Source: a virus | Taxonomy: Duplodnaviria > Heunggongvirae > Uroviricota > Caudoviricetes | Virus record (IMG/VR): IMGVR_UViG_2617271049_000014 | DNA: 17,875 bases | Reading direction: 5' to 3' (one strand) | In this document: positions 1,553 to 16,417 of the stretch, one piece after another | Position numbering within the stretch: position 1 is the stretch's first letter | Layout of the letters: every line of letters begins with the position of its first letter | Notes under the pieces: model-generated | What the model saw: only the letters and a program-made list of their open reading frames with translations | What the model was told of the DNA's origin: nothing | Database searches by the model: none | Position numbers and translations under genes: made by a program

Positions 1553-1753
1553 TCACGAGGACTGAAGTTTCTCGCAATTAAAATTTATCAGTTTTACTTT
1601 CTGCTCTCTGGAAACGCCTGCTTCTTTTTTACCTGAGAGCATTTTTTCGCATTCTGATTTCGTTAGTTTAGATTTTGAATATCTTGTCCAGTTAGTAGGA
1701 GTGCCACCTTCCTTTTCAATAGTGGCGGTAATTTTATACATGAACACCTCCAT
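1553..1753 (-). CDS. ydaC: YdaC-like small prophage protein (DUF1187-like); start ambiguous (ATG 1751-1753 gives 66 aa, ATG 1811-1813 gives 86 aa)
   Basis: ORF 1553..1813 on the minus strand. The internal ATG at 1751-1753 (MEVFMYKITATIEK...) is preceded by GGAA and clears the ralR reading frame better; the upstream ATG has no RBS. Confidence 0.5.
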   Translation of the reverse strand: MEVFMYKITATIEKEGGTPTNWTRYSKSKLTKSECEKMLSGKKEAGVSREQKVKLINFNCEKLQSS

Positions 1754-5386: not shown

Positions 5387-5457
5387 TGTTTTTTAACCTC
5401 AACTCAGATTAAAATTCGTTTTGTTCAGTGAATGATCTTGCCGGATACACACTGTTC

Positions 5458-5482
5458 ATAGCCTGCGCCATACGCAGGCTAT
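5458..5482. other. Perfect inverted repeat (10 bp stem ATAGCCTGCG / CGCAGGCTAT, 5 nt loop) in the racC-recE intergenic region
   Basis: Read directly: atagcctgcg-ccata-cgcaggctat at 5458-5482, about 5 nt downstream of the racC stop (5488-5490) and about 75 nt upstream of the recE start. The minus-strand RNA has no U-tract after the stem. Confidence 0.5.
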
Positions 5483-5487
5483 TTCTT

Positions 5488-5763
5488 TCAGATTTCACCT
5501 TTTAATTTCATTGCAATTAGAGTTGCCAGAAATTCGGCTTTTTTTTCTGCGGGCAGATTCTTTCCGATATGCACCAGGCACATTTTTTTGACACCTTCAT
5601 CAAGTGTTTTTACGTTGCCTGATGGACCATCGATATCAACCACAGTGAATGGGGTTTCTTTATTTTCTGTTTTAATTACGTAGCCAATGCGCTTTCCTTC
5701 CAGATTCACCTCGTGAACAATGTCATCGGTAGTTACAACAGTGGCTTCATAATTGGTAATCAT
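5488..5763 (-). CDS. racC: RacC, small prophage protein, 91 aa
   Basis: ATG at 5761-5763 preceded by a strong RBS (AAGGAGAAAAAC-ATG). Product MITNYEATVVTTDDIVHEVNLEGKRIGYVIK.... The track ORF extends to an upstream ATG at 5811 that lacks an RBS. Confidence 0.8.
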   Translation of the reverse strand: MITNYEATVVTTDDIVHEVNLEGKRIGYVIKTENKETPFTVVDIDGPSGNVKTLDEGVKKMCLVHIGKNLPAEKKAEFLATLIAMKLKGEI

Positions 5764-5837
5764 GTTTTTCTCCTTAATTAAGGTTGAGCGAATACCTGCC
5801 ATTTCTGGCATAAATTCAGTTTCGAATAGTCAATTAA

Positions 5838-6008
5838 TTAAAGTTCATGTGCCATCTGGTCTTTTTCGGCACAAGCTTCACTGCAATATTTTCTCGGTTC
5901 GTCTTTTGATAAAATCCCGTGCATGAAGTGAAGCATTCTTTCAATAGCTTTGCTTTCTTCAACGTCTTTTTTGCAAAGGTGGTAAGCACATTTTATTTTC
6001 TTAGTCAT
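5838..6008 (-). CDS. ydaE: YdaE-like small Cys-rich (zinc-binding type) protein, 56 aa
   Basis: Manual translation from ATG 6006-6008: [56 protein letters not shown], stop TAA at 5838-5840. The start overlaps the kilR stop (ATGA). Below the ORF-track size cutoff. Confidence 0.7.
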   Translation of the reverse strand: MTKKIKCAYHLCKKDVEESKAIERMLHFMHGILSKDEPRKYCSEACAEKDQMAHEL

Positions 6009-6229
6009 CACCATGACTCCGCCTTTACAGGTAAACCATCACGACCGAGGAAGACTTTAATCATGCGGTCAGTAATGCATGTTTTTGTGGTCAGGTTACG
6101 AATATATAGTTTTCGCTTTTTAATATTGTTTGCCGAGGCAATATATGTCCGGCCTTCATGAAGAACATAATCGCCAGGAGTCACACACTGACGTGGTATT
6201 TCATCAGTTCCGAAGTGATGTGCAATCAT
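6008..6229 (-). CDS. kilR: KilR, FtsZ-targeting cell-division inhibitor of Rac, 73 aa
   Basis: ATG 6227-6229 with GGAG RBS. Product [46 protein letters not shown]... matches KilR as I recall it. The track ORF starts 4 codons further upstream. Confidence 0.8.
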
Positions 6230-6670
6230 AATTATCTCCATTTTTACAAATGAACTTTGTTGATGCGGTGCCTGGTGCCTCCAGGTGACTGCAACCAGTT
6301 AACAATTACAGTCGGCTTTCCCACCCAAACCAATAAGGACTAACATGACTTTTAACTGTGCCACGTGCGCTTAGCCGCATTCACCGCATCACAAAATTCA
6401 CTTTAAAAAGGGCGGACATCAGCCGAACTTCAAGAAAAAAACTGATGCCGCCAGGACTACACACAGCAATGTCGTTATTTACAACCGGAGGCGCACTCCC
6501 ACCATTTAAATTTAACAGACAAGACCGACTCTTTATGGATATCGGAAATGCGCCTTCGTGTTGTGCCCGGTTTTATTTCACCACCTCCGGGCTTCGGTGG
6601 TCTCGGCTATACCCCTACAGCGAGAGCTTGTGTTAACATTTCAATACCCTTACAGTTGAGAGTTATTGAT

Positions 6671-7159
6671 ATGTTGGATGTATTTACTCCATTGTTGAAA
6701 CTTTTTGCTAACGAGCCACTCGAAATACTTATGTATACGATTATCATTTTTGGTCTCACTCTCTGGCTGATACCGAAAGAGTTTACTGTCGCATTCAATG
6801 CTTATACTGAAATACCTTGGCTCTTTCAGATTATCGTTTTTGCCTTTTCTTTCGTGGTCGCCATTTCCTTCTCAAGATTGCGAGCACATATTCAAAAGCA
6901 TTATTCATTACTACCAGAGCAACGAGTATTGCTTCGTTTATCTGAGAAAGAAATCGCTGTATTTAAAGATTTCCTTAAAACAGGAAATCTTATTATCACT
7001 TCTCCTTGCCGTAACCCGGTTATGAAAAAATTAGAACGGAAGGGCATCATTCAACATCAGAGTGATAGCGCAAACTGTTCTTATTATCTCGTCACCGAAA
7101 AATACTCCCATTTTATGAAGTTATTCTGGAACAGCAGGAGTAGACGTTTTAATCGTTAG
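6671..7159 (+). CDS. sieB: Superinfection-exclusion protein SieB (membrane protein), 162 aa
   Basis: ATG 6671 (MLDVFTPLLKLFANEPLEILMYTIIIFGLTLWLIPKEF...) with two hydrophobic segments and SieB-like length. The track ORF start at 6548 is an unsupported upstream extension. Confidence 0.8.
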   Translation: MLDVFTPLLKLFANEPLEILMYTIIIFGLTLWLIPKEFTVAFNAYTEIPWLFQIIVFAFSFVVAISFSRLRAHIQKHYSLLPEQRVLLRLSEKEIAVFKDFLKTGNLIITSPCRNPVMKKLERKGIIQHQSDSANCSYYLVTEKYSHFMKLFWNSRSRRFNR

Positions 7160-7311
7160 CTTACTGTGTGCTTCTCCAACCATCGGCGCGCACCAGTTTC
7201 GGTTTTAAATGTTTTGCTTTTGGTATACGTCATGGCAGTGAACGTTCCATCCTGGTTGGGGAACACGCCGCACACCAGGGATTCGTTGTTGCCGAGGTCG
7301 ATTTTTTGCAT
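7156..7311 (-). CDS. ydaF: YdaF-like small prophage protein, 51 aa
   Basis: Manual translation from ATG 7309-7311: MQKIDLGNNESLVCGVFPNQDGTFTAMTYTKSKTFKTETGARRWLEKHTVS, stop TAA at 7156-7158. Convergent 4-nt overlap with the sieB stop. The 51 aa length matches what I recall for K-12 ydaF. Below the ORF-track cutoff. Confidence 0.55.
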   Translation of the reverse strand: MQKIDLGNNESLVCGVFPNQDGTFTAMTYTKSKTFKTETGARRWLEKHTVS

Positions 7312-7321
7312 TTTGCGAATC

Positions 7322-7456
7322 TCACATCTTGTTGCTGTGTATAGCGACTTCTGCCTGCCAGAGATCCCAGTCGTTGCTGCGTAAAGCCTGCACAGCCTGG
7401 TTGTAAGTGATACCGCAACAATCCATCAAATACTGAACTACTTCGTAATGCACCAT
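7322..7456 (-). CDS. ydaG: YdaG-like small prophage protein, 44 aa
   Basis: ATG 7454-7456 preceded by GGGGAGAGATAAG. Product MVHYEVVQYLMDCCGITYNQAVQALRSNDWDLWQAEVAIHSNKM. The track ORF begins at an upstream GTG. First gene downstream of the putative leftward promoter. Confidence 0.6.
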   Translation of the reverse strand: MVHYEVVQYLMDCCGITYNQAVQALRSNDWDLWQAEVAIHSNKM

Positions 7457-7624
7457 CTTATCTCTCCCCTTAACGCCGGGTGGCGGAACTGAAACCTGCT
7501 GCACTGCAAAATCTGAACCCTGCCGTCATGTTCATACGCCTCGGGCTGGCTACTTAACCCCTGACCACTGCCTGGTAACTCGAAGTATTGCCCTGCGTTC
7601 TGTGGGGCGGGGTGGGTTGGTAGG

Positions 7625-7680
7625 TATATAATGTACTTTGTGTTCATTGATGTAAAGTACTTTAAGTACATTTTGTGTGT
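7625..7680 (-). promoter_or_regulatory. Putative leftward early promoter (pL-like) with overlapping operator repeats (oL-like)
   Basis: On the minus strand: -35 TTTACA (plus 7651-7656), 17-nt spacer, -10 CATTAT (plus 7628-7633). ATGTACTT at 7631-7638, the 10-bp palindrome AAAGTACTTT at 7655-7664 and AAGTACAT at 7665-7672 overlap the -35 and -10 elements. Confidence 0.45.
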
Positions 7681-7746
7681 AAAAAAATGAGATGGGATAA
7701 AGTGAAGCACAAACCCGGAGGGGGACGCTACCGGATTTATGCTGGT

Positions 7747-8166
7747 TTAAGAGGCTTTTTGTTTTTTCTTTCGTGCTAGCTCTTCGTAAATTGCATTGTA
7801 CTTCTGTTTTTTCTCCTCAAGAGTTTTTAAAAGTTCATCTGTCTCACTGTCAGGGAGCTCGTCCAGAAGGTCAATGATGATTTTTTGTCTTGGATTTAAC
7901 TCCTGATAGAAACGTACCTGTCCACTTTCTTCTGTATCCTCTCCCAAAAGATAGGTTGGTGTTGTTCCAATGAGTGTTGCTAATTCCCTTAATTTCTCTC
8001 GGCGAGGAATTGTTTCGCCATTAAACCATTTGCTAACCGCTTTTGGTGTTAATTTCATTCGACGGGCAATTTCTGCCTGCCTTCCATGTTGTTCATAACC
8101 AGCGTTTTCACAGGCTAGCGCAAGCCTACTGGCGAACTCTTTACGCGCTTTATCTTCATGAACCAT
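7747..8166 (-). CDS. racR: Prophage repressor (RacR-like), N-terminal HTH, no LexA-like peptidase domain, 139 aa
   Basis: ATG 8164-8166. HTH-like segment QAEIARRMKLTPKAVSKWFNG. Divergent from the Cro-like gene across an ~80 bp operator region. The C-terminus is charged and coiled-coil-like (ELARKKKQKAS). Confidence 0.7.
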   Translation of the reverse strand: MVHEDKARKEFASRLALACENAGYEQHGRQAEIARRMKLTPKAVSKWFNGETIPRREKLRELATLIGTTPTYLLGEDTEESGQVRFYQELNPRQKIIIDLLDELPDSETDELLKTLEEKKQKYNAIYEELARKKKQKAS

Positions 8167-8245
8167 AAGTTCAATGATATTCGCTCTTGAATGTACTGTC
8201 AGTTCTGTTATAGCATGTACTCAAAGTTCACATTGTGAGGGTGAT
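8167..8245. promoter_or_regulatory. Divergent promoter/operator region (oR-like) between the repressor and the Cro-like gene
   Basis: Rightward -35 TTGAAT (8187-8192) and -10 TATAGC (8209-8214), spacer 16. ATGTACT occurs at 8191-8197 and 8215-8221, overlapping those elements; the same heptamer recurs in the oL-like region. Confidence 0.5.
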
Positions 8246-8500
8246 ATGAACCAGAAAACACTTGAAGATGTAATCAAAACTGTTCGCGTTTCTGTTGTGG
8301 CCGACGTTTGTGGTGTCAGCCAAAGAGCAATCTACAAATGGATGGATAACGGAAAATTGCCTCGCACAGAATATACCGGCGAAACAAATTACGCTGAAAA
8401 AATCGCTCATGCATCAAACGGATTATTTTCTGCTGATGTAATTTTAACTATTGGCAGAAATAAAACTACTACGAAAAAGCTGATGGGAGTTGATTCATGA
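8246..8500 (+). CDS. ydaS: Cro/XRE-like small HTH protein (YdaS-like), 84 aa from the ATG at 8246
   Basis: ATG 8246 preceded by GAGGGTGAT. HTH-like VSQRAIYKWMDNGKLP. The track start at 8174 lies only 8 nt from the racR start, leaving no room for a promoter. Stop overlaps the ydaT start (ATGA). Confidence 0.65.
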   Translation: MNQKTLEDVIKTVRVSVVADVCGVSQRAIYKWMDNGKLPRTEYTGETNYAEKIAHASNGLFSADVILTIGRNKTTTKKLMGVDS

Positions 8501-8919
8501 AAATCAAGCATGAGCACATCGAGTCAGTGTTGTTAGCCCTGGCAGCCGAAAAAGGGCAGGCATGGGTAGCCAATGCCATTACTGAAGAATATCTGCGCCA
8601 GGGGGGCGGCGAATTGCCCCTGGTACCAGGCAAGGACTGGAATAATCAGCAGAATATCTATCACCGTTGGTTGAAAGGTGAAACGAAAACGCAAAGAGAA
8701 AAAATTCAGAAGCTGATCCCAGCAATTCTGGCAATCCTTCCGCGCGAGCTGCGTCACCGACTCTGCATCTTCGATACCCTGGAACGCCGTGCATTACTGG
8801 CGGCGCAGGAAGCGTTAAGTACGGCAATTGATGCGCATGATGATGCAGTCCAAGCCGTTTACCGGAAAGCGCATTTCAGCGGCGGCGGGTCTTCCGACGA
8901 TTCTGTCATTGTTCATTAA
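8497..8919 (+). CDS. ydaT: YdaT-like prophage protein, 140 aa
   Basis: ATG 8497 coupled to ydaS. Product MKIKHEHIESVLLALAAEKGQAWVANAITEEYLRQGG...; length matches the 140 aa I recall for Rac YdaT. Confidence 0.75.
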   Translation: MKIKHEHIESVLLALAAEKGQAWVANAITEEYLRQGGGELPLVPGKDWNNQQNIYHRWLKGETKTQREKIQKLIPAILAILPRELRHRLCIFDTLERRALLAAQEALSTAIDAHDDAVQAVYRKAHFSGGGSSDDSVIVH

Positions 8920-8931
8920 GCAAAAGTTTCC

Positions 8932-9684
8932 ATGCTGTTTGTGCTTATTCTAAGCCACCGGGCAGCATCATACGGGGCAATTATGGCCGCATTACCATAC
9001 ATGCAACTGTACATAGCTGATTACCTGGCTGACACCATGCATTTGTCAGCAGAGGAGCATGGTGCGTATTTGTTGCTGATGTTCAATTACTGGCAAACAG
9101 GAAAGCCAATACCTAAAAACAGGCTGGCAAAAATTGCCCGTCTGACTAACGAGCGATGGGCTGATGTTGAACCATCCTTGCAGGAGTTTTTTTGCGATAA
9201 CGGCGAGGAATGGGTGCATCTTCGGATTGAGGAAGATCTGGCATCAGTCAGGGAAAAATTAACCAAAAAATCAGCCGCAGGAAAAGCATCTGTTCAGGCC
9301 AGAAGAAGCAGAAAGGAAGCAGATGTTCAAACAAAACAAGAGAGAAATTTAACAGGTGTTCAAACAGATGTTGAAGTGGTGTTTGAACATGATGTCAACA
9401 CAAAGGCAACTAATAAAGATACAGATAAAGATCTAAAAACAGATCCCCCCCTAAATCCCCCCCGGGGGAATCGAGGTGTCAAAAAGTTTGACCCTCTGGA
9501 TATTGCTTTGCCGAACTGGATTTCTGTCTCGCTTTGGCGTGAGTGGGTTGAATTTCGCCAGGCATTGCGAAAACCGATTCGAACGGAGCAGGGCGCTAAC
9601 GGGGCGATACGGGAGCTGGAAAAATTCCGCCAGCAGGGTTTTTCACCTGAGCAGGTGATTCGACACAGCATCGCCAATGAATAA
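8932..9684 (+). CDS. ydaU: YdaU-like replication-region protein (DUF1376-like N-terminus); start ambiguous (ATG 8932 or ATG 8983, MAALPYMQLY...)
   Basis: N-terminal motif YIADYLADTMHLSAEEHGAYLLLMFNYW. The ORF ends at 9684, shorter than the 285 aa I recall for K-12. Contains two C7 homopolymer tracts at 9445-9463. Confidence 0.65.
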   Translation: MLFVLILSHRAASYGAIMAALPYMQLYIADYLADTMHLSAEEHGAYLLLMFNYWQTGKPIPKNRLAKIARLTNERWADVEPSLQEFFCDNGEEWVHLRIEEDLASVREKLTKKSAAGKASVQARRSRKEADVQTKQERNLTGVQTDVEVVFEHDVNTKATNKDTDKDLKTDPPLNPPRGNRGVKKFDPLDIALPNWISVSLWREWVEFRQALRKPIRTEQGANGAIRELEKFRQQGFSPEQVIRHSIANE

Positions 9685-9812
9685 GAGCCTCAACGTGATG
9701 CTATGCCGACCTGCTCCCTGAGAATTCACACAGAAGGCTGCTAGCAATGTCTGCAGATCGCTCAAAGCGGACTAAAATGTTGGCTTGTTTCTGACTTAGA
9801 GCATTTAAGGAA

Positions 9813-10037
9813 GTGCTGGTGGTGACTGGTTGTTGTGTTCCATTTCTACAGAATAAAATCACAGAAACTATACCCAATAGTTGTATTGAATCACTGACGA
9901 GACAGCCTCATATTTATCAGGACTGGTGTGCGTCTAATACAGGGGGTTGTCGTGCTGGTTCTCAAATGTGCGCTGGCTATTGCGGCTGTAATGGCAATTT
10001 ATTGTCTTGCTGTTGTTCTTATGGAGCGGCTTTCTGA
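9813..10037 (+). CDS. Hypothetical Cys-rich small protein (12 Cys in about 72 aa); speculative
   Basis: ORF with GTG starts at 9813 and 9819; AGGAAG at 9806-9811 gives a 7-nt spacer to GTG 9819. Product ...CCVPFLQNK...CIESL...WCASNTGGCRAGSQMCAGYCGCNGNLLSCCCSYGAAF. No recognised family. Confidence 0.2.
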   Translation: MLVVTGCCVPFLQNKITETIPNSCIESLTRQPHIYQDWCASNTGGCRAGSQMCAGYCGCNGNLLSCCCSYGAAF

Positions 10038-10196
10038 TTGATTACATACTGGCTAGAAAAAAGGTGTTACCTTGGTTTATCTTTGTCCGGCAAGGTGCGC
10101 TCATTAATCTTAAGTAAATTTATTGCTCAAGTATTCAGATTACTTCTTATGGTTGAAGTCTCCTGTCAATGTAGAACCAATATATTTACAAAAATG

Positions 10197-10226
10197 AGAC
10201 CCGTCGGGGATAGCCCTGCCGGGTCT
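10197..10226 (-). terminator. Rho-independent terminator for the minus-strand DUF1971-like gene
   Basis: Stem AGACCCG (10197-10203) pairs with CGGGTCT (10220-10226), with an inner GGG/CCC extension. On the minus strand the hairpin is followed by CAUUUUUGUAAAUAU. It lies about 30 nt downstream of the stop at 10256-10258. Confidence 0.5.
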
Positions 10227-10255
10227 GACTGTTAAAGCATTTTTAATATGATCAT

Positions 10256-10594
10256 CTATTTTTTGGTGCTATAGACTTTTTCGCCCGAAAAGTCTGGAGC
10301 GACCCAAAAGTTAATATTAAACTGAGCATCATCGCTTAGTTCAACACGGTGCCAGTATTGTGGTGGGCTTGTTGCAAAAGCGCCAGCATTAATGACTACT
10401 TTTATCTCCGGTTCAGTAGCATTCTCATCAGTAAAACCATAATATGTTACAGTGCCTTCCATTACGCACAACTGCCCAAAAATACCTGCTGCTGTATTAT
10501 GATGTGTTAATAACGCTGAAGGTACGTTCTCTTTTGTGAAGAACGGAGTTGAGCGTTTGATTACCCAATCTTTAGGAATTCTCTTGTGTGTCAT
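10256..10594 (-). CDS. DUF1971 (YeaR / TehB N-terminal domain-like) small protein, 112 aa
   Basis: ATG 10592-10594 preceded by a strong RBS (GGAGGAGGTGGTT-ATG). Motifs RSTPFF...HHNTAAGIFGQLCVMEGTVTYYGF...EP...INAGAFATSPPQYWHRVE...DDAQFNINFWVAP fit the DUF1971 pattern as I recall it. Opposite orientation to the flanking phage genes. Confidence 0.5.
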   Translation of the reverse strand: MTHKRIPKDWVIKRSTPFFTKENVPSALLTHHNTAAGIFGQLCVMEGTVTYYGFTDENATEPEIKVVINAGAFATSPPQYWHRVELSDDAQFNINFWVAPDFSGEKVYSTKK

Positions 10595-11407
10595 AACCAC
10601 CTCCTCCAAAACATGCATTAAAAATGCATCTTTTGGAGGGTTATGTCAAGCTGTTATGAAACACATAATTGATATGTTGATTAGAGGAGAAGATAGAATA
10701 AATATGGTTGTTTTTCGTATAACTATTTGTTTTACTTTTAGTTTATGCATTCTGTGTGTTAGGAATAAGTTATTAAAGTTTAATCAAAAAATCTCGATGT
10801 AGTCCACATAGATTACTGTTACTGAACCTTATTGTGTGTATTAGTTGTGTTCTGAAATTTCAGCTTAATTATTTATGATGTATTTTTTAACGATAAATAT
10901 TTTCCCAGGATACCTTTACTGTGTATATAAATAAATTATATACGCATAAATAATGTAAAGGCGTCCTTTTAGATATATCTTATCAAATGTTAATGACTTG
11001 AGTGGGAAATATGATTCCAGCAACTTATCATGTGGCTACTTTATAAAAATAATGCCCATATAAAACAACAAGCGAAAAGGATTACGGATAAAAAAGGAGC
11101 GAGATGTGCGAACTTGTTATTTTCCATGTTTAACCACCTTAAATAATTGATGATGACGGGATGATTGCATCTGTAATGCTTTTATTGAAATGTTATGATA
11201 AAAAAGAACTTTTGCATAACATTAAAATGTAATTTATCTAATCGTTTTTAATAATAAGTGTCGTATTTCTATCCTTGTACCAGCTATTTGATATGTAGTG
11301 TTTGTTCATGCTATGTGGGGCTTTACACCATAGCCAGTTTATTTATACTTTATTCGTCAGCCTGAACAACTGGCATCTGCTGCGCTGCGCCATCGAGAGA
11401 TTGAGAA

Positions 11408-12007
11408 ATGGCGCATATACAACTGGTCAAACAAACCTCTTCTGGTTTACTTCTCCCGGCGACGCCGGAGAGTTGCGATTTTCTGCATCAAATCAAAATA
11501 GGTGAGTGGATACACGCAGACTTTAAGCGTGTGCGTAACTACGCATTCCACAAGCGTTTTTTCAAACTCCTGCAACTGGGATTCGATTACTGGACTCCGG
11601 TCGGTGGGGCGATCACGCCTCGCGAACGAGAACTGCTGTCTGGTTTCGTTGATTACCTGTGCGAATCAGTTGGTCGGGAACACACGCCAGCCCTGAGTGA
11701 TGCCGCAGAGCAATACCTTAACACCGTTGCGACTCGTAGAACCCGGGATACGGCGTTGCTAAAGTCGTTTGAGGCTTTCCGCGAGTGGGTAACCATTCAG
11801 GCCGGATTTTACACCGAGCATATTTATCCGGACGGTAGCCGTGGGCGTCGGGCAAAATCCATCGCTTTTGCGAATATGGACGAAGTCGAGTTTCAGCAGG
11901 TTTATAAATCTGTACTGAATGTGCTGTGGAACTGGATTCTGTTCCGTAAATTCTCCTCTCAGGAGGAAGTTGAAAATGTGGCCGCACAACTACTGGAGTT
12001 TGCGTAA
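11408..12007 (+). CDS. Phage nin-region protein (DUF1367-like), 199 aa
   Basis: ATG 11408 with GAGAG upstream. Stop overlaps the next start (TAATG). The family call is from position and recollection only. Confidence 0.5.
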   Translation: MAHIQLVKQTSSGLLLPATPESCDFLHQIKIGEWIHADFKRVRNYAFHKRFFKLLQLGFDYWTPVGGAITPRERELLSGFVDYLCESVGREHTPALSDAAEQYLNTVATRRTRDTALLKSFEAFREWVTIQAGFYTEHIYPDGSRGRRAKSIAFANMDEVEFQQVYKSVLNVLWNWILFRKFSSQEEVENVAAQLLEFA

Positions 12008-12297
12008 TGGTGAATTTACGTAAAGCGGCTAAAGGCCAGATGTGCCAGATCAGAATCCCTGGCTACTGCAATCACAATCCCGAAACCTCTGTGCTGGCGC
12101 ATTACAGGCTGGCGGGGACGTGCGGAACAGCGACAAAACCACATGATATGCAGGCGGCGATAGCCTGTAGCTCATGCCACGATCTAATCGACGGGCGGGT
12201 AAAAACCAGCGATTACACCAAAGAAGAATTGCGCCTGATGCATGCTGAAGGGGTTTTTCGCACACAAGAAATCTGGAGAAAGAAAGGTCATTTATGA
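12007..12297 (+). CDS. ybcO: YbcO-like (DUF1364) zinc-binding nin-region nuclease, 96 aa
   Basis: Motif KGQMCQIRIPGYCNHNPETSVLAHYRLAG.CGT.TKP.D...IACSSCHD matches the Cys/His pattern of YbcO as I recall it. Translationally coupled on both sides (TAATG and ATGA overlaps). Confidence 0.7.
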   Translation: MVNLRKAAKGQMCQIRIPGYCNHNPETSVLAHYRLAGTCGTATKPHDMQAAIACSSCHDLIDGRVKTSDYTKEELRLMHAEGVFRTQEIWRKKGHL

Positions 12298-12836
12298 TTT
12301 ACCCAACGAATACAGGAAAAAGCGGAGAACACCTTCGCCTCACCACGCTGGAAAGTGTCTGGATTCAGGGAAAACTACGTATGTGGGGGCGCTGGTCGTA
12401 TATTGGCGGTGGCAGGTCAGGGAATATGTTCAATCAGTTGTTGGCATCCAAAAAACTGACGAAAACAGCCATTAATGAAGCCCTGCGCAGAATGAAAAAA
12501 GCGGGAATAGAGAAAGCTGAGCTGGAAGCGTTTTTGCGAGAGATGATCAACGGCAAGCAAAAGAGCTGGCTGGCGCATTGTACTGATGCAGAGGCGTTAT
12601 GTATTGATCGAGTCATAAGTGAGGTGCTGGCAGAGCATCCAGGATTGATTTGCATTCTCCGGCAACGCTATGAAGGGCGGGGGATGACTAAGCGCAAAAT
12701 GGCTGAATTGCTAAATGATGCACACCCAGAGTGGTGTTTTAGCACATGCGAAAAACGGATTGCTAATTGGTTAGCTGTTGCTGAGTATGCCCTATATATT
12801 CCCATGCGTGAATCATTTGCTGAGAAAATGGCTTGA
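12294..12836 (+). CDS. Putative late-gene antiterminator (Q-like), 180 aa
   Basis: Last gene of the nin-like operon, immediately upstream of a promoter-like region and a strong terminator, and upstream of the lysis cassette. Cys/His pairs (C...H...C..C) are compatible with a zinc-binding Q protein. Assignment is mainly positional. Confidence 0.5.
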   Translation: MIYPTNTGKSGEHLRLTTLESVWIQGKLRMWGRWSYIGGGRSGNMFNQLLASKKLTKTAINEALRRMKKAGIEKAELEAFLREMINGKQKSWLAHCTDAEALCIDRVISEVLAEHPGLICILRQRYEGRGMTKRKMAELLNDAHPEWCFSTCEKRIANWLAVAEYALYIPMRESFAEKMA

Positions 12837-12916
12837 TTTCTTACGTATAAACTGCTTCAATTTTGCTATGCTTCGCAAAGCTGTATCGCGAGGCGGATTG
12901 CAGACATGGACATCGT
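12837..12916 (+). promoter_or_regulatory. Candidate late promoter region (PR'-like, with Q-binding element) between the Q-like gene and the first terminator
   Basis: Positional inference. TATAAA at 12846-12851 and TTGCTA at 12863-12868 are present, but I cannot assign a confident -35/-10 pair. Confidence 0.3.
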
Positions 12917-12943
12917 AAAAAAACCGCTTAATGCGGTTTTTTT
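12917..12943 (+). terminator. Rho-independent terminator (tR'-like), potentially bidirectional
   Basis: AAAAAAACCGC-TTAAT-GCGGTTTTTTT: a GC stem flanked by an A7 run upstream and a T7 run downstream. Confidence 0.6.
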
Positions 12944-13263
12944 ACGTCAGGAAAGCAGGGGAGAATGCTGCTAGTTGGGCAACTGGTCTTTCTGCTCCAA
13001 ATTATAACAGAGACCAGTTATAGTTTCGGTGCTGTGTTTTTTTTACAATATTGTGATAACACATTGCTGGCGGGAGTTTTGATATTTCTTGGCAGGGGCT
13101 GATGATGCGTTATCCTGATGTCGTCAACTCATATAAAATGAGATGAGAGATCATTGCAGGGTGGTTTGTAATTCGCTGTTTAGCGGGACAATATGTTGTC
13201 TGATACAAGACACCCGACGCCTCAGATTACTATAATAAAGACGAAGCATCCTTTGTATTGACC

Positions 13264-13289
13264 AACCGCCTGTTTAGGCGGTTCTTTTT
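13264..13289 (+). terminator. Rho-independent terminator
   Basis: AACCGCC-TGTTTA-GGCGGTT followed by CTTTTT. No large ORF lies upstream (12944-13263). Confidence 0.55.
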
Positions 13290-13821
13290 GGGCTGGTTTA
13301 TTGTATGCCAAATGATTATTAAAAAGGTTGTGTTAATAACAAAATCCGAAATAATATGCCTGCATATTTTTATCTTGCTTATATTCTGCATATTGTGCAT
13401 AGCAGGCTCATCCCTGCAATCAAAACTGTATGATGAGTATTTTTTGTTTTCCTTTTTTCCAGTCATCTGATGATGACCTGCTTCTTTTTAATCCGGATCG
13501 ACATCAGTTTTTTAAGATAATTCCTGCGAGTTATATGCATAAATGCCACAAACTCCGCATTTTATGTGGTTGGGAGTTGCCGGGCGCGCAGTGAGTTTGC
13601 TAAGAAAACTCCTGCATGGTGAATCCCCCTGTGCGGTGGGGTGATACCATTAACCTTTTCTGTCGCCGACAGGTATCACGAACATTTTGTTCACCGGGAG
13701 GCACCCGGCACCATGCACTTCAATAGATTCTCTCCACATTATGGATATTCTTTCAGAATATCCCACGCAGACTTTGTGTAAATGTTAACAAATGTGCGTT
13801 TTATTTGATCTGATTCGCTGT

Positions 13822-13850
13822 TTGAGCGTCCAAAACAACGGTATATATAA
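13822..13850 (+). promoter_or_regulatory. Sigma-70-like promoter for the lipoprotein cassette
   Basis: -35 TTGAGC (13822-13827), 17-nt spacer, consensus -10 TATAAT (13845-13850), about 30 nt upstream of ATG 13881. Confidence 0.4.
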
Positions 13851-13880
13851 TCCTTTACTATATGACATATGTGAGGAAAA

Positions 13881-14309
13881 ATGGGTTTTCGTAGCGCATC
13901 AATTCTTACGTTGATTATTAGTGGGATTATTATCGGGTGCACTGATGCTGTATCGACAAATTATCATGACCGTACATCATATTACTCCGATAAAGCAATA
14001 GAGACACAGTATGTGAGTTCATCTGAACGTACTTCTGATGTTAGTGAGGATATCCGTCTGTATGCCCATCAAATCAAGAGCGCCATCGAAAAACAGTTCG
14101 GGGATGCGAGTAAGTATTCAGGAAAAGAGTGTACACTGAGAATGCATATGGCCCCGAATGGCCTTCTACTGGAGGTTAAAAGAGAAAGTGGAGACCTCGA
14201 TTTATGTCGTGAAGCGATGAATGCGATAAAGAATGCTGATATACCTGCCCCCCCTTCGCCGGAAGTATATAAAGTATTTCAAAATGGGGTGCTGGATTTT
14301 AAACCCTGA
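13881..14309 (+). CDS. Outer-membrane-type lipoprotein with a C-terminal TolA domain III-like domain, 142 aa
   Basis: ATG 13881 with GAGGA RBS. Signal peptide and lipobox IIGC followed by Thr at +2. The C-terminal ~85 aa (YAHQIKSAIEKQFGDASKYSGKECTLRMHMAPNGLLLEVK...DLCREAMNAIKNADIPAPPSPEVYKVFQNGVLDFKP) resembles the TolA C-terminal domain as I recall it, including the terminal LDFKP. Confidence 0.75.
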   Translation: MGFRSASILTLIISGIIIGCTDAVSTNYHDRTSYYSDKAIETQYVSSSERTSDVSEDIRLYAHQIKSAIEKQFGDASKYSGKECTLRMHMAPNGLLLEVKRESGDLDLCREAMNAIKNADIPAPPSPEVYKVFQNGVLDFKP

Positions 14310-14459
14310 TATTTATTGTTTTGTAATAAACGGTTTCGGCTTAGGTTTGTTCTGACACAGCTACGGCACTGAGCTAAATTTAGCGGATAGTCAGCTCTGA
14401 GCCAGTGGCGGACGTAACAACTACTATTGCTGAGATTTTAATGGATTGAGGAGCAAGAA

Positions 14460-14855
14460 GTGGGATTAAAGAAAATCGTTATGTTGACTTTTTGGGTCGG
14501 TTTTGTTGCGGGATGCACACCTTTACACCCTTCAGATTGCCACAAAACTACTGCTACAGGTAGTTGCAGTTCAGGACGCTGGGATGATCAGGATGAATGG
14601 GGGGCGCAAGCGCGGGGAATCAGAGCTGCAATTAATGCCAAACTTGATGAGCCGCATAACTGGAAAGGGAAAAAATGCAGGTTGCATATGGAATTCTCTC
14701 AGGATGGCACGGCGTTAAAAATATCTACCAGTAACGGTGATAAAGCCTATTGCGAAGCGATAAAGTCCGCAGCTCATAAAGCCAAATTTCCGGCCTTCAA
14801 CAATCCGGAAGTCTACAGAGATTTTCAGAAATCTGGCTTTGACATGCGAGGTTAG
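14460..14855 (+). CDS. Second lipoprotein, paralogous to the first in its TolA domain III-like C-terminal domain, 131 aa
   Basis: GTG 14460 with GAGGAG RBS at a 6-nt spacer (alternative ATG at 14481). Signal peptide and lipobox VAGC, Thr at +2. C-terminal region GIRAAINAKL...GKKCRLHMEFSQDGTALKIS...GDKAYCEAIKSAAHKAKFPAFNNPEVYRDF aligns with the first lipoprotein (GKxCxL, DGxxLxI, GDxxxC, NPEVY/SPEVY). Confidence 0.7.
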   Translation: MGLKKIVMLTFWVGFVAGCTPLHPSDCHKTTATGSCSSGRWDDQDEWGAQARGIRAAINAKLDEPHNWKGKKCRLHMEFSQDGTALKISTSNGDKAYCEAIKSAAHKAKFPAFNNPEVYRDFQKSGFDMRG

Positions 14856-14980
14856 CTCTTCAATTACTATATCTCATTCATAGCAAACTGACAGATTTGA
14901 TGATGTTCTATATACGAAACCTGTGATGTCAAGTCTGAGCTAATACAAATAAACATAATATCAGAGAAATACATTTTATT

Positions 14981-15004
14981 AGCTCGCTACGGCGAGCTTT
15001 TTAT
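14981..15004 (+). terminator. Rho-independent terminator closing the lipoprotein cassette
   Basis: AGCTCGC-TACG-GCGAGCT followed by TTTTTA, about 125 nt after the stop of the second lipoprotein and about 100 nt before the holin start. Confidence 0.6.
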
Positions 15005-15106
15005 ATTGCATCGTCTCCAGCATATATATCAATTAAGGCTCTGATTGATGTGTCTGAAAGCCTACACATAATAACTATGCCATCCGTTCCGTGCGGAGGT
15101 GAGGCT

Positions 15107-15322
15107 ATGAAATCCATGGACAAAATTTCAACAGGCATTGCCTACGGCACCTCCGCAGGCAGTGCTGGCTACTGGTTTTTACAGTTGCTCGATAGAGTAA
15201 CTCCGTCACAGTGGGCTGCAATCGGTGTGCTGGGTAGTCTGGTATTTGGCCTGCTGACGTACCTGACAAACCTTTATTTCAAGATTAAAGAAGATAAGCG
15301 CAAGGCTGCGAGAGGTGAATAA
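15107..15322 (+). CDS. essD: Phage 21-type class II holin / pinholin (S21/EssD-like) with dual-start motif, 71 aa (68 aa from Met4)
   Basis: [71 protein letters not shown]: two TMDs and the Met1-Lys2-Ser3-Met4 dual start. RBS GGAGGTGAGG. The track ORF extends to 15050. Stop overlaps the endolysin start (TAATG). Confidence 0.8.
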
Positions 15323-15819
15323 TGCCTCCATCATTACGAAAAGTCGTTGCTGCTGCTATTGGTGGCGGAGCAATTGCTATAGCATCAGTGTTAATCACTG
15401 GCCCAAGTGGTAACGATGGTCTGGAAGGTGTCAGCTACATACCATACAAAGATATTGTTGGTGTATGGACTGTATGTCACGGGCATACAGGAAAAGACAT
15501 CATGCTCGGTAAAACGTATACCAAAGCAGAATGCAAAGCACTCTTGAATAAAGACCTTGCCACTGTCGCCAGACAAATTAACCCGTACATCAAAGTCGAT
15601 ATACCGGAAACAACGCGCGGCGCTCTTTACTCATTCGTTTACAACGTGGGTGCTGGCAATTTCAGAACATCGACGCTTCTTCGCAAAATAAACCAGGGCG
15701 ATATCAAAGGCGCATGTGATCAGCTACGTCGCTGGACATATGCTGGCGGTAAGCAATGGAAAGGTCTCATGACTCGTCGTGAGATTGAGCGTGAAATCTG
15801 TTTGTGGGGTCAGCAATGA
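15322..15819 (+). CDS. rrrD: SAR endolysin (phage 21 R-type lysozyme, RrrD-like), 165 aa
   Basis: N-terminal Gly/Ala-rich signal-anchor-release segment ([20 protein letters not shown]) followed by a T4-lysozyme-like domain. Coupled to the holin and to Rz. Confidence 0.85.
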
Positions 15820-16280
15820 ACAGAGTAACCGCGATTATCTCCGCTCTGGTTATCTGCATCATCGTCTGCCTGTCATGGGCTGTTAATCATTACCGTGATA
15901 ACGCCATTACCTACAAAGCCCAGCGCGACAAAAATGTCAGAGAACTGAAGCTGGCGAACGCGGCAATTACTGACATGCAGATGCGTCAGCGTGATGTTGC
16001 TGCGCTCGATGCAAAATACACGAAGGAGTTAGCTGATGCGAAAGCTGAAAATGATGCTCTGCGTGATGATGTTGCCGCTGGTCGTCGTCGGTTGCACATC
16101 AAAGCAGTCTGTCAGTCAGTGCGTGAAGCCACCACCGCCTCCGGCGTGGATAATGCAGCCTCCCCCCGACTGGCAGACACCGCTGAACGGGATTATTTCA
16201 CCCTCCGGGAACGACTGGTAATGATGCAGGCCCAACTTGAAGGTGCTCAGCAATACATAACCGAGCAGTGTTTAAAGTAA
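15816..16280 (+). CDS. rzpD: Rz-like inner-membrane spanin subunit, 154 aa
   Basis: ATG 15816 overlapping the endolysin stop (ATGA). N-terminal TMD ([20 protein letters not shown]) followed by a coiled-coil periplasmic domain. The track ORF starts at an upstream GTG. Confidence 0.8.
16036..16221 (+). CDS. rzoD: Rz1-like outer-membrane lipoprotein spanin subunit embedded in the +1 frame of Rz, 61 aa
   Basis: ATG 16036 with AAGGAG RBS (7-nt spacer). Lipobox VVGC, then a proline-rich mature region ([18 protein letters not shown]). Entirely inside the Rz gene, as is typical. Confidence 0.75.
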
Positions 16281-16417
16281 AATCTTAACTACAATATGAT
16301 TCATTTTGATGATTGTTTCATAAGGAACAGTGAAGTAAGATCTAAGAGGAGTTAAATTTTATACAGTATAATCATAATATTGCAGCAAGGTGGTTATAAT
16401 TGAAAGAATATTTAGAT

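What the first reader, a model, noticed from the sequence alone, without database searches (positions are those of the whole stretch)
9685..11407. Replacement segment after ydaU: opposite-strand DUF1971/YeaR-like gene plus ~0.8 kb AT-rich ORF-poor DNA
Where lambdoid phages normally carry the helicase-loader gene and the start of the nin region, this window has a segment with no long forward ORF. It contains a minus-strand gene with a strong RBS and its own terminator, encoding a DUF1971-like protein (a family linked to TehB and the nitric-oxide/nitrate-responsive yeaR), followed by a very AT-rich stretch (10620-11400) containing only tiny ORFs. This looks like horizontally acquired cargo with a long regulatory region, plausibly H-NS-silenced, or an undetected RNA gene.
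Basis: partly seen in the sequence, partly recalled or inferred. Interest (0 to 1): 0.45.

Follow-up and report, generated by a model that had tools for sequence, protein, structure and literature searches.

The report
Prophage cargo gene under nitric-oxide repressor control
This stretch of a Rac-like E. coli prophage carries a small imported gene of unknown biochemistry (DUF1971) whose promoter sits inside a near-perfect binding site for the nitric-oxide sensor NsrR, so it is an ordinary kind of phage passenger gene with a clear, testable switch.

Summary
9685-11407 has no credible long forward ORF. It has a minus-strand DUF1971 gene (10256-10594, 112 aa) with a strong RBS and an intrinsic terminator, and a 26-34% GC stretch (10620-11400).

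It is not a replacement. A near-identical prophage shows the window has a private 5.6-kb deletion at 9683/9684. This truncates ydaU and removes ydaV, DUF1627, DUF977 and cargo genes. No other complete E. coli genome of 5,426 spans this junction.

The DUF1971 gene is a moron (a self-contained passenger gene), found in about 465 of 5,426 E. coli genomes. Its promoter is TTGACA-17-CATTTT. The -10 lies inside a 23-bp NsrR operator (10610-10632), which has 1 mismatch to the consensus and is 21/23 identical to the ytfE site. The same promoter-operator layout precedes the chromosomal orthologues in Kluyvera, Leclercia, Citrobacter, Klebsiella and others (52 of 80 loci; 5 of 2,057 background windows). 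Repression by NsrR with induction by NO is therefore the likely control.

Only about 60 bp of the AT-rich DNA is this promoter. 10650-11024 is a module-specific spacer with one strong hairpin. 11025-11407 is conserved phage backbone, holding a candidate 28-codon minus-strand ORF and the DUF1367-operon promoter.

A conserved, mostly unannotated 29-codon membrane-peptide gene lies at 9952-10041.

There is no Rfam match. H-NS binding is untested.

The parts
8932..9684 (+). Truncated ydaU-like gene (DUF1376), 250 aa instead of 285 aa. Its last codons and TAA stop are created by the deletion junction.
   Evidence: Pfam DUF1376 E 2e-26. The full-length 858-nt ydaU is annotated in the near-identical prophage L001. 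The junction was read.
9683..9684 (.). Junction of a private 5.6-kb deletion, with 2-nt TA microhomology. It removed the ydaU 3' end, ydaV, DUF1627, DUF977, IS2 and two hypothetical cargo genes.
   Evidence: blastn: window 5322-9683 = L001 1-4362, and window 9682-17875 = L001 9998-18191, at 99.8-99.95% identity. None of 5,426 complete E. coli genomes spans the junction.
9685..9757 (.). Leftover intergenic DNA from downstream of the lost cargo genes. Positions 9700-9773 are 80% identical to 74 bp in the Z/fun cargo hotspot of phage P2.
9886..9914 (+). Promoter of the small ORF sORF-A: -35 TTGAAT (9886-9891), 17-nt spacer, -10 CATATT (9909-9914).
   Evidence: The hexamers and their spacing are kept in diverged variants (L005, L006, L083) whose spacer and flanks differ. 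One variant (L004) has lost the -35.
9952..10041 (+). sORF-A, a 29-codon hydrophobic peptide (GTG start, MLVLKCALAIAAVMAIYCLAVVLMERLSD) with SD GGGGG at 9942-9946. It is part of a ~300-bp element (9758-10056) present in about 1,750 of 5,426 E. coli genomes and almost never annotated.
   Evidence: The ORF is intact in 40 loci with 13 distinct DNA variants. Variable sites by codon position are 7/3/16, and the periodicity is seen only inside the ORF. A few GenBank records call it 'putative membrane protein'. It is present in phages mEp460, Tritos, Evi and HannyBb. It has no family match.
10188..10226 (-). Intrinsic terminator of the DUF1971 gene: GC-rich stem followed by UCAUUUUUG. It probably also ends the convergent sORF-A transcript.
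   Evidence: Fold dG -19.4 kcal/mol, z -2.6.
10256..10594 (-). DUF1971 gene, 112 aa, a short stand-alone TehB-N/YeaR-like cupin-type domain.
   Evidence: Pfam E 5.7e-26. phrog_34268 E 4e-78. PDB 3DL3 E 4.8e-59, about 80% identity. YeaR 3BB6 E 2e-24. RefSeq CDS WP_000149055.1.
10600..10607 (-). Shine-Dalgarno GGAGGAGG, 5 nt upstream of the ATG.
   Evidence: Sequence read.
10610..10632 (.). NsrR operator, an 11-1-11 inverted repeat: AACATGCATTAAAAATGCATCTT.
   Evidence: It has 1 mismatch to AANATGCATTTNAAATGCATNTT. It is the only match in the window at up to 3 mismatches, with 0.01 expected by chance. It is 21/23 identical to the ytfE site in PMC5320621 Table 4. It is conserved in the phage variants and in 52 of 80 orthologous loci, against 5 of 2,057 background windows.
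10621..10649 (-). Promoter of the DUF1971 gene: -35 TTGACA (10649-10644), 17-nt spacer, -10 CATTTT (10626-10621). The -10 lies inside the operator.
   Evidence: Sequence read. A -35-like hexamer starts 17-18 nt before the operator in 31 of 51 distinct upstream regions. The -10 equivalents are TATTTT, TATATT and CATATT in the orthologues.
10650..11024 (.). AT-rich spacer (GC about 0.26-0.30) found only together with the DUF1971 gene. Its function is unknown, and it is a candidate H-NS target.
   Evidence: Present in 465 of 5,426 genomes and always unannotated. No relatives in plasmids or other phages. A 57-bp indel flanked by TTCCCAGG repeats distinguishes variants.
10907..10972 (+). Long imperfect hairpin followed by UUUU. 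It is a candidate rightward terminator or structured RNA.
   Evidence: dG -25.7 kcal/mol, z -6.0, 0 of 200 shuffles fold as well. The outer 13-bp stem is perfect in the L011 variant.
11041..11127 (-). sORF-B, a candidate 28-codon hydrophobic peptide (MENNKFAHLAPFLSVILFACCFIWALFL) with SD AAGGTGG at 11134-11140.
   Evidence: It is 28 codons and intact in 63 loci with 14 DNA variants, across two leader types that are only about 77% identical. It has no indels, whereas the flanks do. Codon-position bias is weak, 7/9/11. It is not annotated anywhere.
11128..11321 (.). Conserved AT-rich divergent control region between sORF-B and the DUF1367 operon. It is phage backbone and is present with or without DUF1971.
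11322..11349 (+). Promoter of the DUF1367-DUF1364-DUF1133 (Q-like) operon: TTTACA-16-TATACT.
   Evidence: Scan hit with 10 of 12 matches. The hexamers are conserved and the spacer varies across leader types. Unrelated leaders keep a TATAAT/TACAAT/TATACT at the same place.
11356..11374 (+). Hairpin at the start of the DUF1367 transcript, with a constant UGAAC loop motif and different stems in different leader types.
   Evidence: Stems are GUCAG/CUGGC, GCCAG/CUGGC, GCUAG/CUGGC, GCAGGA/UCCUGC and GGG/CCC. There are only three independent stem types. It is single-copy in the window.
11408..12007 (+). DUF1367 gene, the first gene of the late-regulator module and the right boundary of the finding.
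   Evidence: Pfam E 6e-98.

Best explanation
The segment is the right-hand end of the variable cargo region of a Rac-like lambdoid prophage. A strain-specific 5.6-kb deletion has brought it next to a truncated ydaU.

Its core is a moron: a stand-alone DUF1971 gene captured from an enterobacterial chromosome together with its promoter and NsrR operator. It is transcribed leftward, against the phage early-right direction, and is ended by its own intrinsic terminator.

The -10 hexamer lies inside a near-consensus NsrR 11-1-11 operator. NsrR should therefore occlude the promoter in unstressed cells. Nitrosylation of the NsrR iron-sulphur cluster by NO should release it and switch the gene on from the resident prophage, independently of phage induction. 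The protein is a small cupin-type domain of unknown biochemistry. By analogy with yeaR and other NsrR-regulon members, it most likely contributes to coping with nitrosative stress.

The AT-rich DNA is composite. About 60 bp is the promoter and operator. About 375 bp is a module-specific spacer containing a strong hairpin. About 380 bp is conserved phage backbone carrying a candidate divergent 28-codon ORF and the promoter of the DUF1367-DUF1364-Q-like operon.

Shown here: gene identity, the deletion, the distribution, the operator match and its phylogenetic conservation, and the promoter layout. Inferred: NsrR binding in vivo, NO induction, the physiological role, and translation of the small ORFs.
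For: Gene identity.

Deletion.

Presence/absence among related prophages, within a hotspot whose cargo varies (DUF262+TPR, FRG, Drt2+RipA, QueH, KilA-N, S8 peptidase).

Operator: 1 mismatch to the 23-bp consensus with chance expectation 0.01. It is 21/23 identical to the ytfE site; the predicted sites listed for yeaR and tehA in PMC5320621 Table 4 have more mismatches to this consensus.

Phylogenetic footprint: 52 of 80 orthologous loci have an operator with at most 4 mismatches, 15-27 nt (43 nt in one Photobacterium locus) upstream of the ATG, against 5 of 2,057 background windows. A -35 hexamer sits at a fixed 17-18 nt offset in 31 of 51 distinct upstream regions, and the -10 lies within the operator.

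Capture unit: DNA homology to the Kluyvera/Leclercia-type orthologues runs from the stop codon to 10633, that is, CDS plus SD plus operator.

Terminator.

Backbone nature of 11025-11407.

Indirect support: Yersinia 'tehB' is reported as RNS-responsive in vivo (bioRxiv 10.64898/2026.03.25.714363).
Against: There are no expression, ChIP or binding data for this locus. The literature searches found nothing on a prophage DUF1971 gene.

The -10 CATTTT matches only 3 of 6 consensus positions, and the generic promoter scan did not report it.

Most Vibrionaceae orthologues show no operator within 200 nt, so NsrR control is not universal in the family.

The biochemical function of DUF1971 is unknown, and no phenotype is known for yeaR from the papers searched.

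The donor is unidentified: the best chromosomal relatives are only 83% identical in protein and about 73-75% in DNA.

The role of the 375-bp spacer is unexplained.
Confidence: 0.7

Rival explanations
1. The whole AT-rich stretch is xenogeneic DNA coated and silenced by H-NS, and that silencing, rather than a specific repressor, determines expression of the DUF1971 gene.
For: GC is 0.26-0.30 over about 400 bp. The spacer travels only with the acquired gene. AT-rich horizontally acquired DNA is the usual H-NS target in E. coli (established knowledge).
Against: It was not tested here, because no ChIP data are accessible. It is not exclusive of NsrR control. It does not explain the conserved operator and promoter layout shared with GC-richer chromosomal orthologues. 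The right half of the AT-rich DNA is native phage backbone, not acquired cargo.
Confidence: 0.3
2. The AT-rich region encodes an unrecognised small RNA. One candidate is a rightward transcript of about 90 nt, from the promoter-like site at 10852-10879 to the hairpin and U-run at 10907-10972. Another is a leftward RNA covering sORF-B.
For: The hairpin has dG -25.7 and z -6.0 and is followed by UUUU. The outer stem is improved by paired changes in another variant. There is a promoter-like match at 10852-10879. Conserved blocks lie upstream of sORF-B.
Against: There is no Rfam match, even at E up to 5. Promoter-like matches in the region are no more frequent than in shuffles (4 found against 6.5 expected). 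Only three close sequence variants exist, so covariation cannot be assessed. The hairpin could equally be just a terminator for read-through from the early operon.
Confidence: 0.15
3. The palindrome at 10603-10639 acts at the RNA level rather than as a protein operator: it would form a hairpin that sequesters the Shine-Dalgarno sequence, giving translational control.
For: The arms are 17 nt and 94% complementary, and they include GGAGG. Weak miRNA-precursor-like Rfam hits reflect the hairpin.
Against: The extension beyond the 23-bp core, including the part that pairs with the SD, is not conserved in the other phage variants or in the orthologues, while the 23-bp core is. With the inferred start site, the left arm would not be transcribed.
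Confidence: 0.05
4. The gene is a tellurite-resistance TehB, as some RefSeq records name it, or an anti-phage defence gene, given its position in a defence-rich hotspot.
For: PGAP names it 'TehB family protein' in some genomes. Neighbouring prophages carry Drt2, DUF262 and FRG-type cargo in the same region.
Against: The NCBIfam TehB equivalog scores 48.6 bits against a cut-off of 303, and only the N-terminal 96 of 289 model positions match. The methyltransferase domain is absent. There is no PADLOC match. The orthologues are ordinary single chromosomal genes with the same NsrR promoter, for example next to murQ/murP-like genes in Kluyvera.
Confidence: 0.07

Closest known systems
E. coli yeaR (yeaR-yoaG operon), an NsrR- and NarL-regulated DUF1971 gene
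   Same: Both have a stand-alone DUF1971 fold (PDB 3BB6, E 2e-24). PMC5320621 lists a predicted NsrR 11-1-11 site upstream of yeaR, and yeaR is one of the most strongly nitrate/NO-induced genes.
   Different: This gene belongs to a separate orthologous group, which is about 80% identical to PDB 3DL3 and 75-83% identical to the Kluyvera, Citrobacter, Klebsiella and Vibrio proteins. It has no yoaG partner. It lies on a prophage. Its operator is much closer to the consensus (1 mismatch; the listed yeaR site AAATGGTATTTAAAATGCAAATT has more). A consensus -35 suggests no activator is needed; NarL sites were not examined.
ytfE / hmp-type NsrR-repressed promoters
   Same: The operator is 21/23 identical to the ytfE site. 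It overlaps the -10, which is consistent with repression by occlusion.
   Different: The regulated product is a protein of unknown function carried by a mobile element. Binding was not shown.
Lambdoid phage morons (for example lambda bor and lom, and cargo in the Rac/Qin hok-rel region)
   Same: It is a self-contained promoter-gene-terminator unit inserted between phage operons, with lower GC than its flanks. It is present or absent among otherwise similar prophages and could be expressed from the repressed prophage.
   Different: It brings a host global-regulator operator with it from the chromosomal orthologue. It is oriented against early-right transcription.
TehB of Haemophilus influenzae (PDB 3M70)
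   Same: The N-terminal domain is homologous (E 7.5e-11).
   Different: The SAM-dependent methyltransferase domain that defines TehB is absent.
Type I toxins and small membrane proteins (Hok, Ibs, ShoB, TisB and similar), as the nearest analogy for sORF-A and sORF-B
   Same: Both are 28-29-residue single-helix hydrophobic peptides with a strong SD. Both lie beside hokD in many prophages.
   Different: There is no sequence family match. No antisense RNA was identified. Toxicity is untested.

Membership tests
DUF1971 (Pfam PF09313; TehB-N/YeaR-like domain) | Full-length match to the family profile above the curated threshold | tested here: met
   90.8 bits against a cut-off of 23.1, model positions 1-80 of 80. 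phrog_34268 E 4e-78.
DUF1971 (Pfam PF09313; TehB-N/YeaR-like domain) | Sequence similarity to the solved structures of the family | tested here: met
   3DL3 E 4.8e-59 over residues 1-111. 3BB6 (YeaR) E 2e-24. 3M70 N-terminal domain E 7.5e-11.
TehB SAM-dependent methyltransferase (NCBIfam NF008992) | Presence of the C-terminal methyltransferase domain and a score above the equivalog cut-off | tested here: not met
   48.6 bits against a cut-off of 303. Only model positions 11-106 of 289 are matched. The protein is 112 aa.
NsrR regulon | An 11-1-11 inverted repeat matching the NsrR consensus in the promoter region | tested here: met
   10610-10632 has 1 mismatch, with chance expectation 0.01. It is 21/23 identical to the ytfE site.
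NsrR regulon | Operator positioned to interfere with RNA polymerase (overlapping -10/+1) and conserved in orthologues | tested here: met
   The -35 sits at a fixed 17-18 nt offset and the -10 lies inside the operator, in the phage copy and in the enterobacterial orthologues. The promoter itself is inferred, not mapped.
NsrR regulon | NsrR binding in vitro or in vivo, and derepression by NO or in an nsrR mutant | not testable with these tools
   There are no data for this locus. CFT073 ChIP-seq/RNA-seq (PMC5320621) does not list it.
Phage moron | An autonomous unit with its own promoter and terminator, inserted between phage genes | tested here: met
   Promoter and operator. Terminator. It lies between the cargo hotspot and the DUF1367 operon.
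Phage moron | Present or absent among otherwise related phages, with composition differing from the flanks | tested here: met
   It is absent from L002, L009, L010 and L012, which have the same DUF1367 module. It is present in about 465 of 5,426 genomes. GC is 0.26-0.42 against 0.45-0.55 in the flanks.
H-NS-silenced xenogeneic DNA | An AT-rich acquired tract | tested here: met
   GC 0.257-0.30 over 10650-11100.
H-NS-silenced xenogeneic DNA | H-NS occupancy and derepression in an hns mutant | not testable with these tools
   No ChIP or expression data are available here.
Known RNA families (Rfam 15) | A covariance-model match at or near the gathering score within 9600-11500 | tested here: not met
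   Nothing at gathering thresholds. The best sub-threshold hit is 22 bits against a gathering score of 100.
Type I toxin-antitoxin (for sORF-A and sORF-B) | A small hydrophobic peptide gene under coding constraint | tested here: inconclusive
   sORF-A shows clear third-position bias, 7/3/16. sORF-B stays intact but with weak bias, 7/9/11.
Type I toxin-antitoxin (for sORF-A and sORF-B) | A cognate antisense or divergent antitoxin RNA, and toxicity on overexpression | not tested
   No antisense promoter was searched for systematically. Toxicity needs experiments.

The most novel reading that the evidence does not exclude
The prophage wires host nitric-oxide sensing into its own early-to-late junction. 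On NO exposure, derepression of the strong NsrR-controlled leftward promoter would do more than make a stress protein: it would drive convergent transcription into the early-right read-through path, between the replication genes and the Q-like operon. Together with the hairpin at 10907-10972 and the two unannotated membrane-peptide genes flanking the position that hokD occupies in related prophages, this would form an uncharacterised control and addiction module. That module would modulate prophage induction or host survival in inflamed tissue.
Probability: 0.12. Interest if true: 0.6.

Novelty: new member of a known kind. Interest (0 to 1): 0.35.

Why it matters
About 9% of complete E. coli genomes carry this module. 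If the prediction holds, it is a clean case of lysogenic conversion in which a phage passenger gene arrives already wired to a host global stress sensor (NsrR). That adds a mobile member to the nitric-oxide regulon, in strains from gut, urinary and poultry sources.

It also gives DUF1971 a sharper handle. The family has two crystal structures but no known function, and this orthologous group carries an NsrR-controlled promoter across many Enterobacteriaceae.

As by-products, the analysis identified a widespread, essentially unannotated 29-codon gene present in about a third of E. coli genomes, a second candidate small gene, and the promoter of the late-regulator operon of Rac-like phages.

Tried and rejected
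Rfam at gathering thresholds over the whole window, and at E up to 5 over 9600-11500, gave nothing relevant.

The 120-aa reading of the minus-strand ORF was rejected. Its ATG lies inside the operator palindrome, and RefSeq, the PHROG profile and PDB 3DL3 all align from the 112-aa start.

The Cys-rich 74-aa forward ORF (9813-10037) was rejected. It has no family match, and the substitutions show third-position periodicity in the other frame, that of sORF-A.

The extended 17-nt-arm palindrome as an SD-sequestering RNA hairpin was rejected, because the extension is not conserved.

TehB membership was rejected. Membership of a defence system was rejected (PADLOC).

The search for relatives of the AT-rich spacer found none beyond the module itself, in plasmids, in phages and in E. 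coli genomes in distant mode.

Literature searches for DUF1971, for NsrR+prophage+TehB, for yeaR/yoaG function and for the small peptide sequences found nothing describing this locus.

No second copy of the UGAAC hairpin was found in the window, so a nut-like paired-site idea has no support.

Neighbours of the Kluyvera orthologue (PTS EIIBC, SIS-domain protein, fimbrial genes) gave no functional clue.

No FNR-type inverted repeat was seen by eye upstream of the promoter. NarL/NarP sites were not analysed.
Full report
**What is at the coordinates**

The window is a Rac-like E. coli prophage. It carries the RalA sRNA at 1557-1735, a racR-like repressor, ydaS/ydaT/ydaU-like genes, a DUF1367-DUF1364-DUF1133 late-regulator module, lysis genes and trkG.

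Between the ydaU-like stop (9684) and the DUF1367 start (11408), the forward ORFs are 74, 65, 88 and 67 aa and have no family match.

The minus-strand ORF is a DUF1971 protein. Pfam gives E 5.7e-26 with the full model covered, and phrog_34268 gives E 4e-78. RefSeq annotates the 112-aa form, 10256-10594.

GGAGGAGG lies 5 nt before the ATG. A GC-rich hairpin followed by UCAUUUUUG follows the stop.

GC falls to 0.257-0.343 between 10501 and 11400.

**Not a replacement but a deletion**

A prophage in E. coli O78 strain 3 (L001) is 99.8-99.95% identical to the window on both sides: window 5322-9683 = L001 1-4362, and window 9682-17875 = L001 9998-18191.

In L001 the intervening 5.6 kb holds the ydaU 3' end (285 aa in full), ydaV, DUF1627, DUF977, an IS2 and two hypothetical cargo genes.

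The junction shows 2 nt of microhomology (TA) and creates the TAA that ends the truncated 250-aa ydaU.

No complete E. coli genome of 5,426 spans this junction. The deletion is therefore private to the source strain, and the prophage has lost its helicase loader. The segment right of the junction is a normal part of such prophages: its full length is found in 354 genomes.

**The surrounding architecture**

In related prophages and phages, the DNA between DUF977 and the late-regulator module is a cargo hotspot with changing content. Examples are DUF262+TPR, an FRG-domain protein, Drt2+RipA, QueH, KilA-N, and an S8 peptidase with an FtsH-like protein.

At its right end lies a ~300-bp element (window 9758-10056) present in about 1,750 of 5,426 genomes and almost never annotated. 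It is followed either by hokD or, as here, by the DUF1971 unit.

**The DUF1971 unit and its control**

The protein is about 80% identical to PDB 3DL3 (E 4.8e-59). It is more distantly related to E. coli YeaR (3BB6, E 2e-24) and to the N-terminal domain of H. influenzae TehB.

It is not a TehB. It scores 48.6 bits against a cut-off of 303, and the methyltransferase domain is missing.

Read on the minus strand, the upstream sequence is CTTGACA-taaccctccaaaagatg-CATTTT-taatgcatgttttGGAGGAGGtggttATG.

Positions 10610-10632, AACATGCATTAAAAATGCATCTT, match the NsrR 11-1-11 consensus with one mismatch. This is the only such site in the window, with chance expectation 0.01 even at three mismatches. 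The site is 21/23 identical to the ytfE site listed in the CFT073 NsrR ChIP-seq study. That study also lists predicted NsrR sites at yeaR and tehA (PMC5320621).

The operator is kept in the other phage variants.

One-genome-per-species sampling returned 80 orthologous loci at 74-99% protein identity. Of these, 52 have an operator with at most 4 mismatches, 15-27 nt (43 nt in one Photobacterium locus) upstream of the ATG, against 5 of 2,057 background windows. The 52 comprise the Enterobacteriaceae sampled, including Kluyvera, Leclercia, Citrobacter, Klebsiella, Raoultella and Salmonella arizonae/diarizonae, plus that Photobacterium locus. Most Vibrionaceae lack the site.

A -35-like hexamer (TTGACA, TTTACA or TTGACG) starts 17-18 nt before the operator in 31 of 51 distinct upstream regions. 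This places the -10 (CATTTT, TATTTT, TATATT or CATATT) at operator positions 7-12.

Nucleotide homology between the phage copy and the Kluyvera/Leclercia-type orthologues runs from the stop codon to 10633 and no further.

I conclude that the phage captured the gene with its NsrR-occluded promoter. The gene should be repressed by NsrR and induced by NO from the resident prophage. Binding and induction are inferences.

The longer 17-nt-arm palindrome that includes the SD is not conserved, so I treat it as incidental.

**The AT-rich DNA is composite**

1. About 10595-10650 is the SD, operator and promoter.

2. 10650-11024 occurs only with the DUF1971 gene. It is in 465 of 5,426 genomes and unannotated, with no relatives in plasmids or other phages.
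   - It contains a 57-bp indel polymorphism flanked by TTCCCAGG repeats.
   - It contains a long hairpin at 10907-10967 followed by UUUU (dG -25.7, z -6.0). The outer stem is perfect in another variant.
   - This hairpin could terminate rightward read-through or mark a small RNA. Rfam gives no support.

3. 11025-11407 is phage backbone. It is found at about 77% identity upstream of DUF1367 in prophages that lack DUF1971.
   - It holds a minus-strand 28-codon ORF (11041-11127, MENNKFAHLAPFLSVILFACCFIWALFL) with SD AAGGTGG. The ORF is intact in 63 loci and 14 DNA variants without indels, but its codon-position bias is weak at 7/9/11. It is a candidate gene only.
   - It holds a promoter, TTTACA-16-TATACT, at 11322-11349. 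The hexamers are conserved while the spacer varies, and even unrelated leaders keep a -10 at this place.
   - The transcript would begin with a hairpin whose loop keeps UGAAC while the stem differs among leader types. There are only three independent stem types, so this stays an observation.

**The small gene at 9952-10041**

This is a GTG-initiated 29-codon ORF (MLVLKCALAIAAVMAIYCLAVVLMERLSD) preceded by GGGGG.

It is intact in 40 loci with 13 DNA variants. Variable sites by codon position are 7/3/16, and the periodicity is confined to the ORF.

Its promoter, TTGAAT-17-CATATT (9886-9914), is retained in diverged variants whose spacer and flanks differ.

A few GenBank records call it 'putative membrane protein'. 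It is also in phages mEp460, Tritos, Evi and HannyBb. No family library contains it.

Its role is unknown. It could be a membrane-active peptide, a toxin or an exclusion factor.

**Comparison with known systems and verdict**

The unit works like a classical lambdoid moron and like an NsrR-regulon promoter of the ytfE/yeaR type. It meets the sequence-level criteria of both. The experimental criteria (binding, induction) cannot be tested here.

It is a member of DUF1971. It is not TehB and not a known defence gene.

Literature searches found no description of a prophage-borne DUF1971 gene or of its NsrR site. A recent preprint, citing earlier Yersinia pestis work, lists a Yersinia 'tehB' among genes protecting against reactive nitrogen species that are induced by activated macrophages. 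This is consistent with the prediction, but I did not check what that 'tehB' encodes.

Overall, this is a new member of a known kind with a specific, testable regulatory prediction. Its 'replacement' and 'long regulatory region' readings were wrong. Interest is moderate to low.

Noticed in passing
window 9758-10056 (ORF 9952-10041, +): A ~300-bp element in about a third of complete E. coli genomes, almost never annotated. It encodes a 29-codon hydrophobic peptide with a clear coding signature and its own conserved promoter. In many prophages it sits immediately upstream of hokD.
   Followed up: yes
window 11041-11127 (-): A candidate 28-codon hydrophobic ORF with a strong SD, divergent from the DUF1367 operon. 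It is intact in all 63 loci examined, including leader types that are only about 77% identical, but its codon-position bias is weak. At 87 nt it is too short for gene callers.
   Followed up: partly
window 11356-11374 (+) and equivalent positions in L016, L085, L087, L089: A hairpin right after the DUF1367-operon promoter. It keeps a UGAAC loop while the stem sequence differs between leader types (GUCAG/CUGGC, GCAGGA/UCCUGC, GGG/CCC). Its function is unknown and it is single-copy in the window.
   Followed up: partly
window 10907-10972 (+): A very stable long hairpin (z -6.0) followed by UUUU, inside the DUF1971-specific AT-rich spacer. It is a possible terminator for early-right read-through or the 3' end of a small RNA.
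   Followed up: partly
window 9700-9773; L173 (phage P2) 1801-1874: A 74-bp stretch 80% identical to unannotated DNA in the P2 Z/fun cargo hotspot, between the tail-fibre assembly gene and FI. This suggests cargo, or its flanks, moves between the hotspots of unrelated phages.
   Followed up: partly
L002-L012 (region between DUF977 and hokD/DUF1367): The region left of the finding is a cargo hotspot in Rac/mEp460-like prophages. Its contents vary: DUF262+TPR, an FRG-domain protein, Drt2+RipA, QueH, KilA-N, and an S8 peptidase with an FtsH-like protein. In the window this region has been deleted.
   Followed up: partly
window ~10902; L005, L008, L011: A 57-bp insertion/deletion polymorphism in the AT-rich spacer, flanked by TTCCCAGG direct repeats. 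It is absent in the window.
   Followed up: no
window 1557-1735 and 13584-13770: Rfam matches above the gathering score to the RalA antitoxin sRNA (225 bits) and to STnc100 (86.6 bits). Both lie outside the finding.
   Followed up: no
E. coli genomes NZ_CP182331 and NZ_CP043821 (hits H17, H23): IS1 and IS3-family insertions interrupt this same segment in some strains.
   Followed up: no
L124, L128, L137-L142 and other Vibrionaceae/Shewanella loci: Orthologues at 74-78% protein identity mostly lack an NsrR-type site within 200 nt upstream. One exception is the Photobacterium locus L145. Control of this gene family therefore differs outside Enterobacteriaceae.
   Followed up: no
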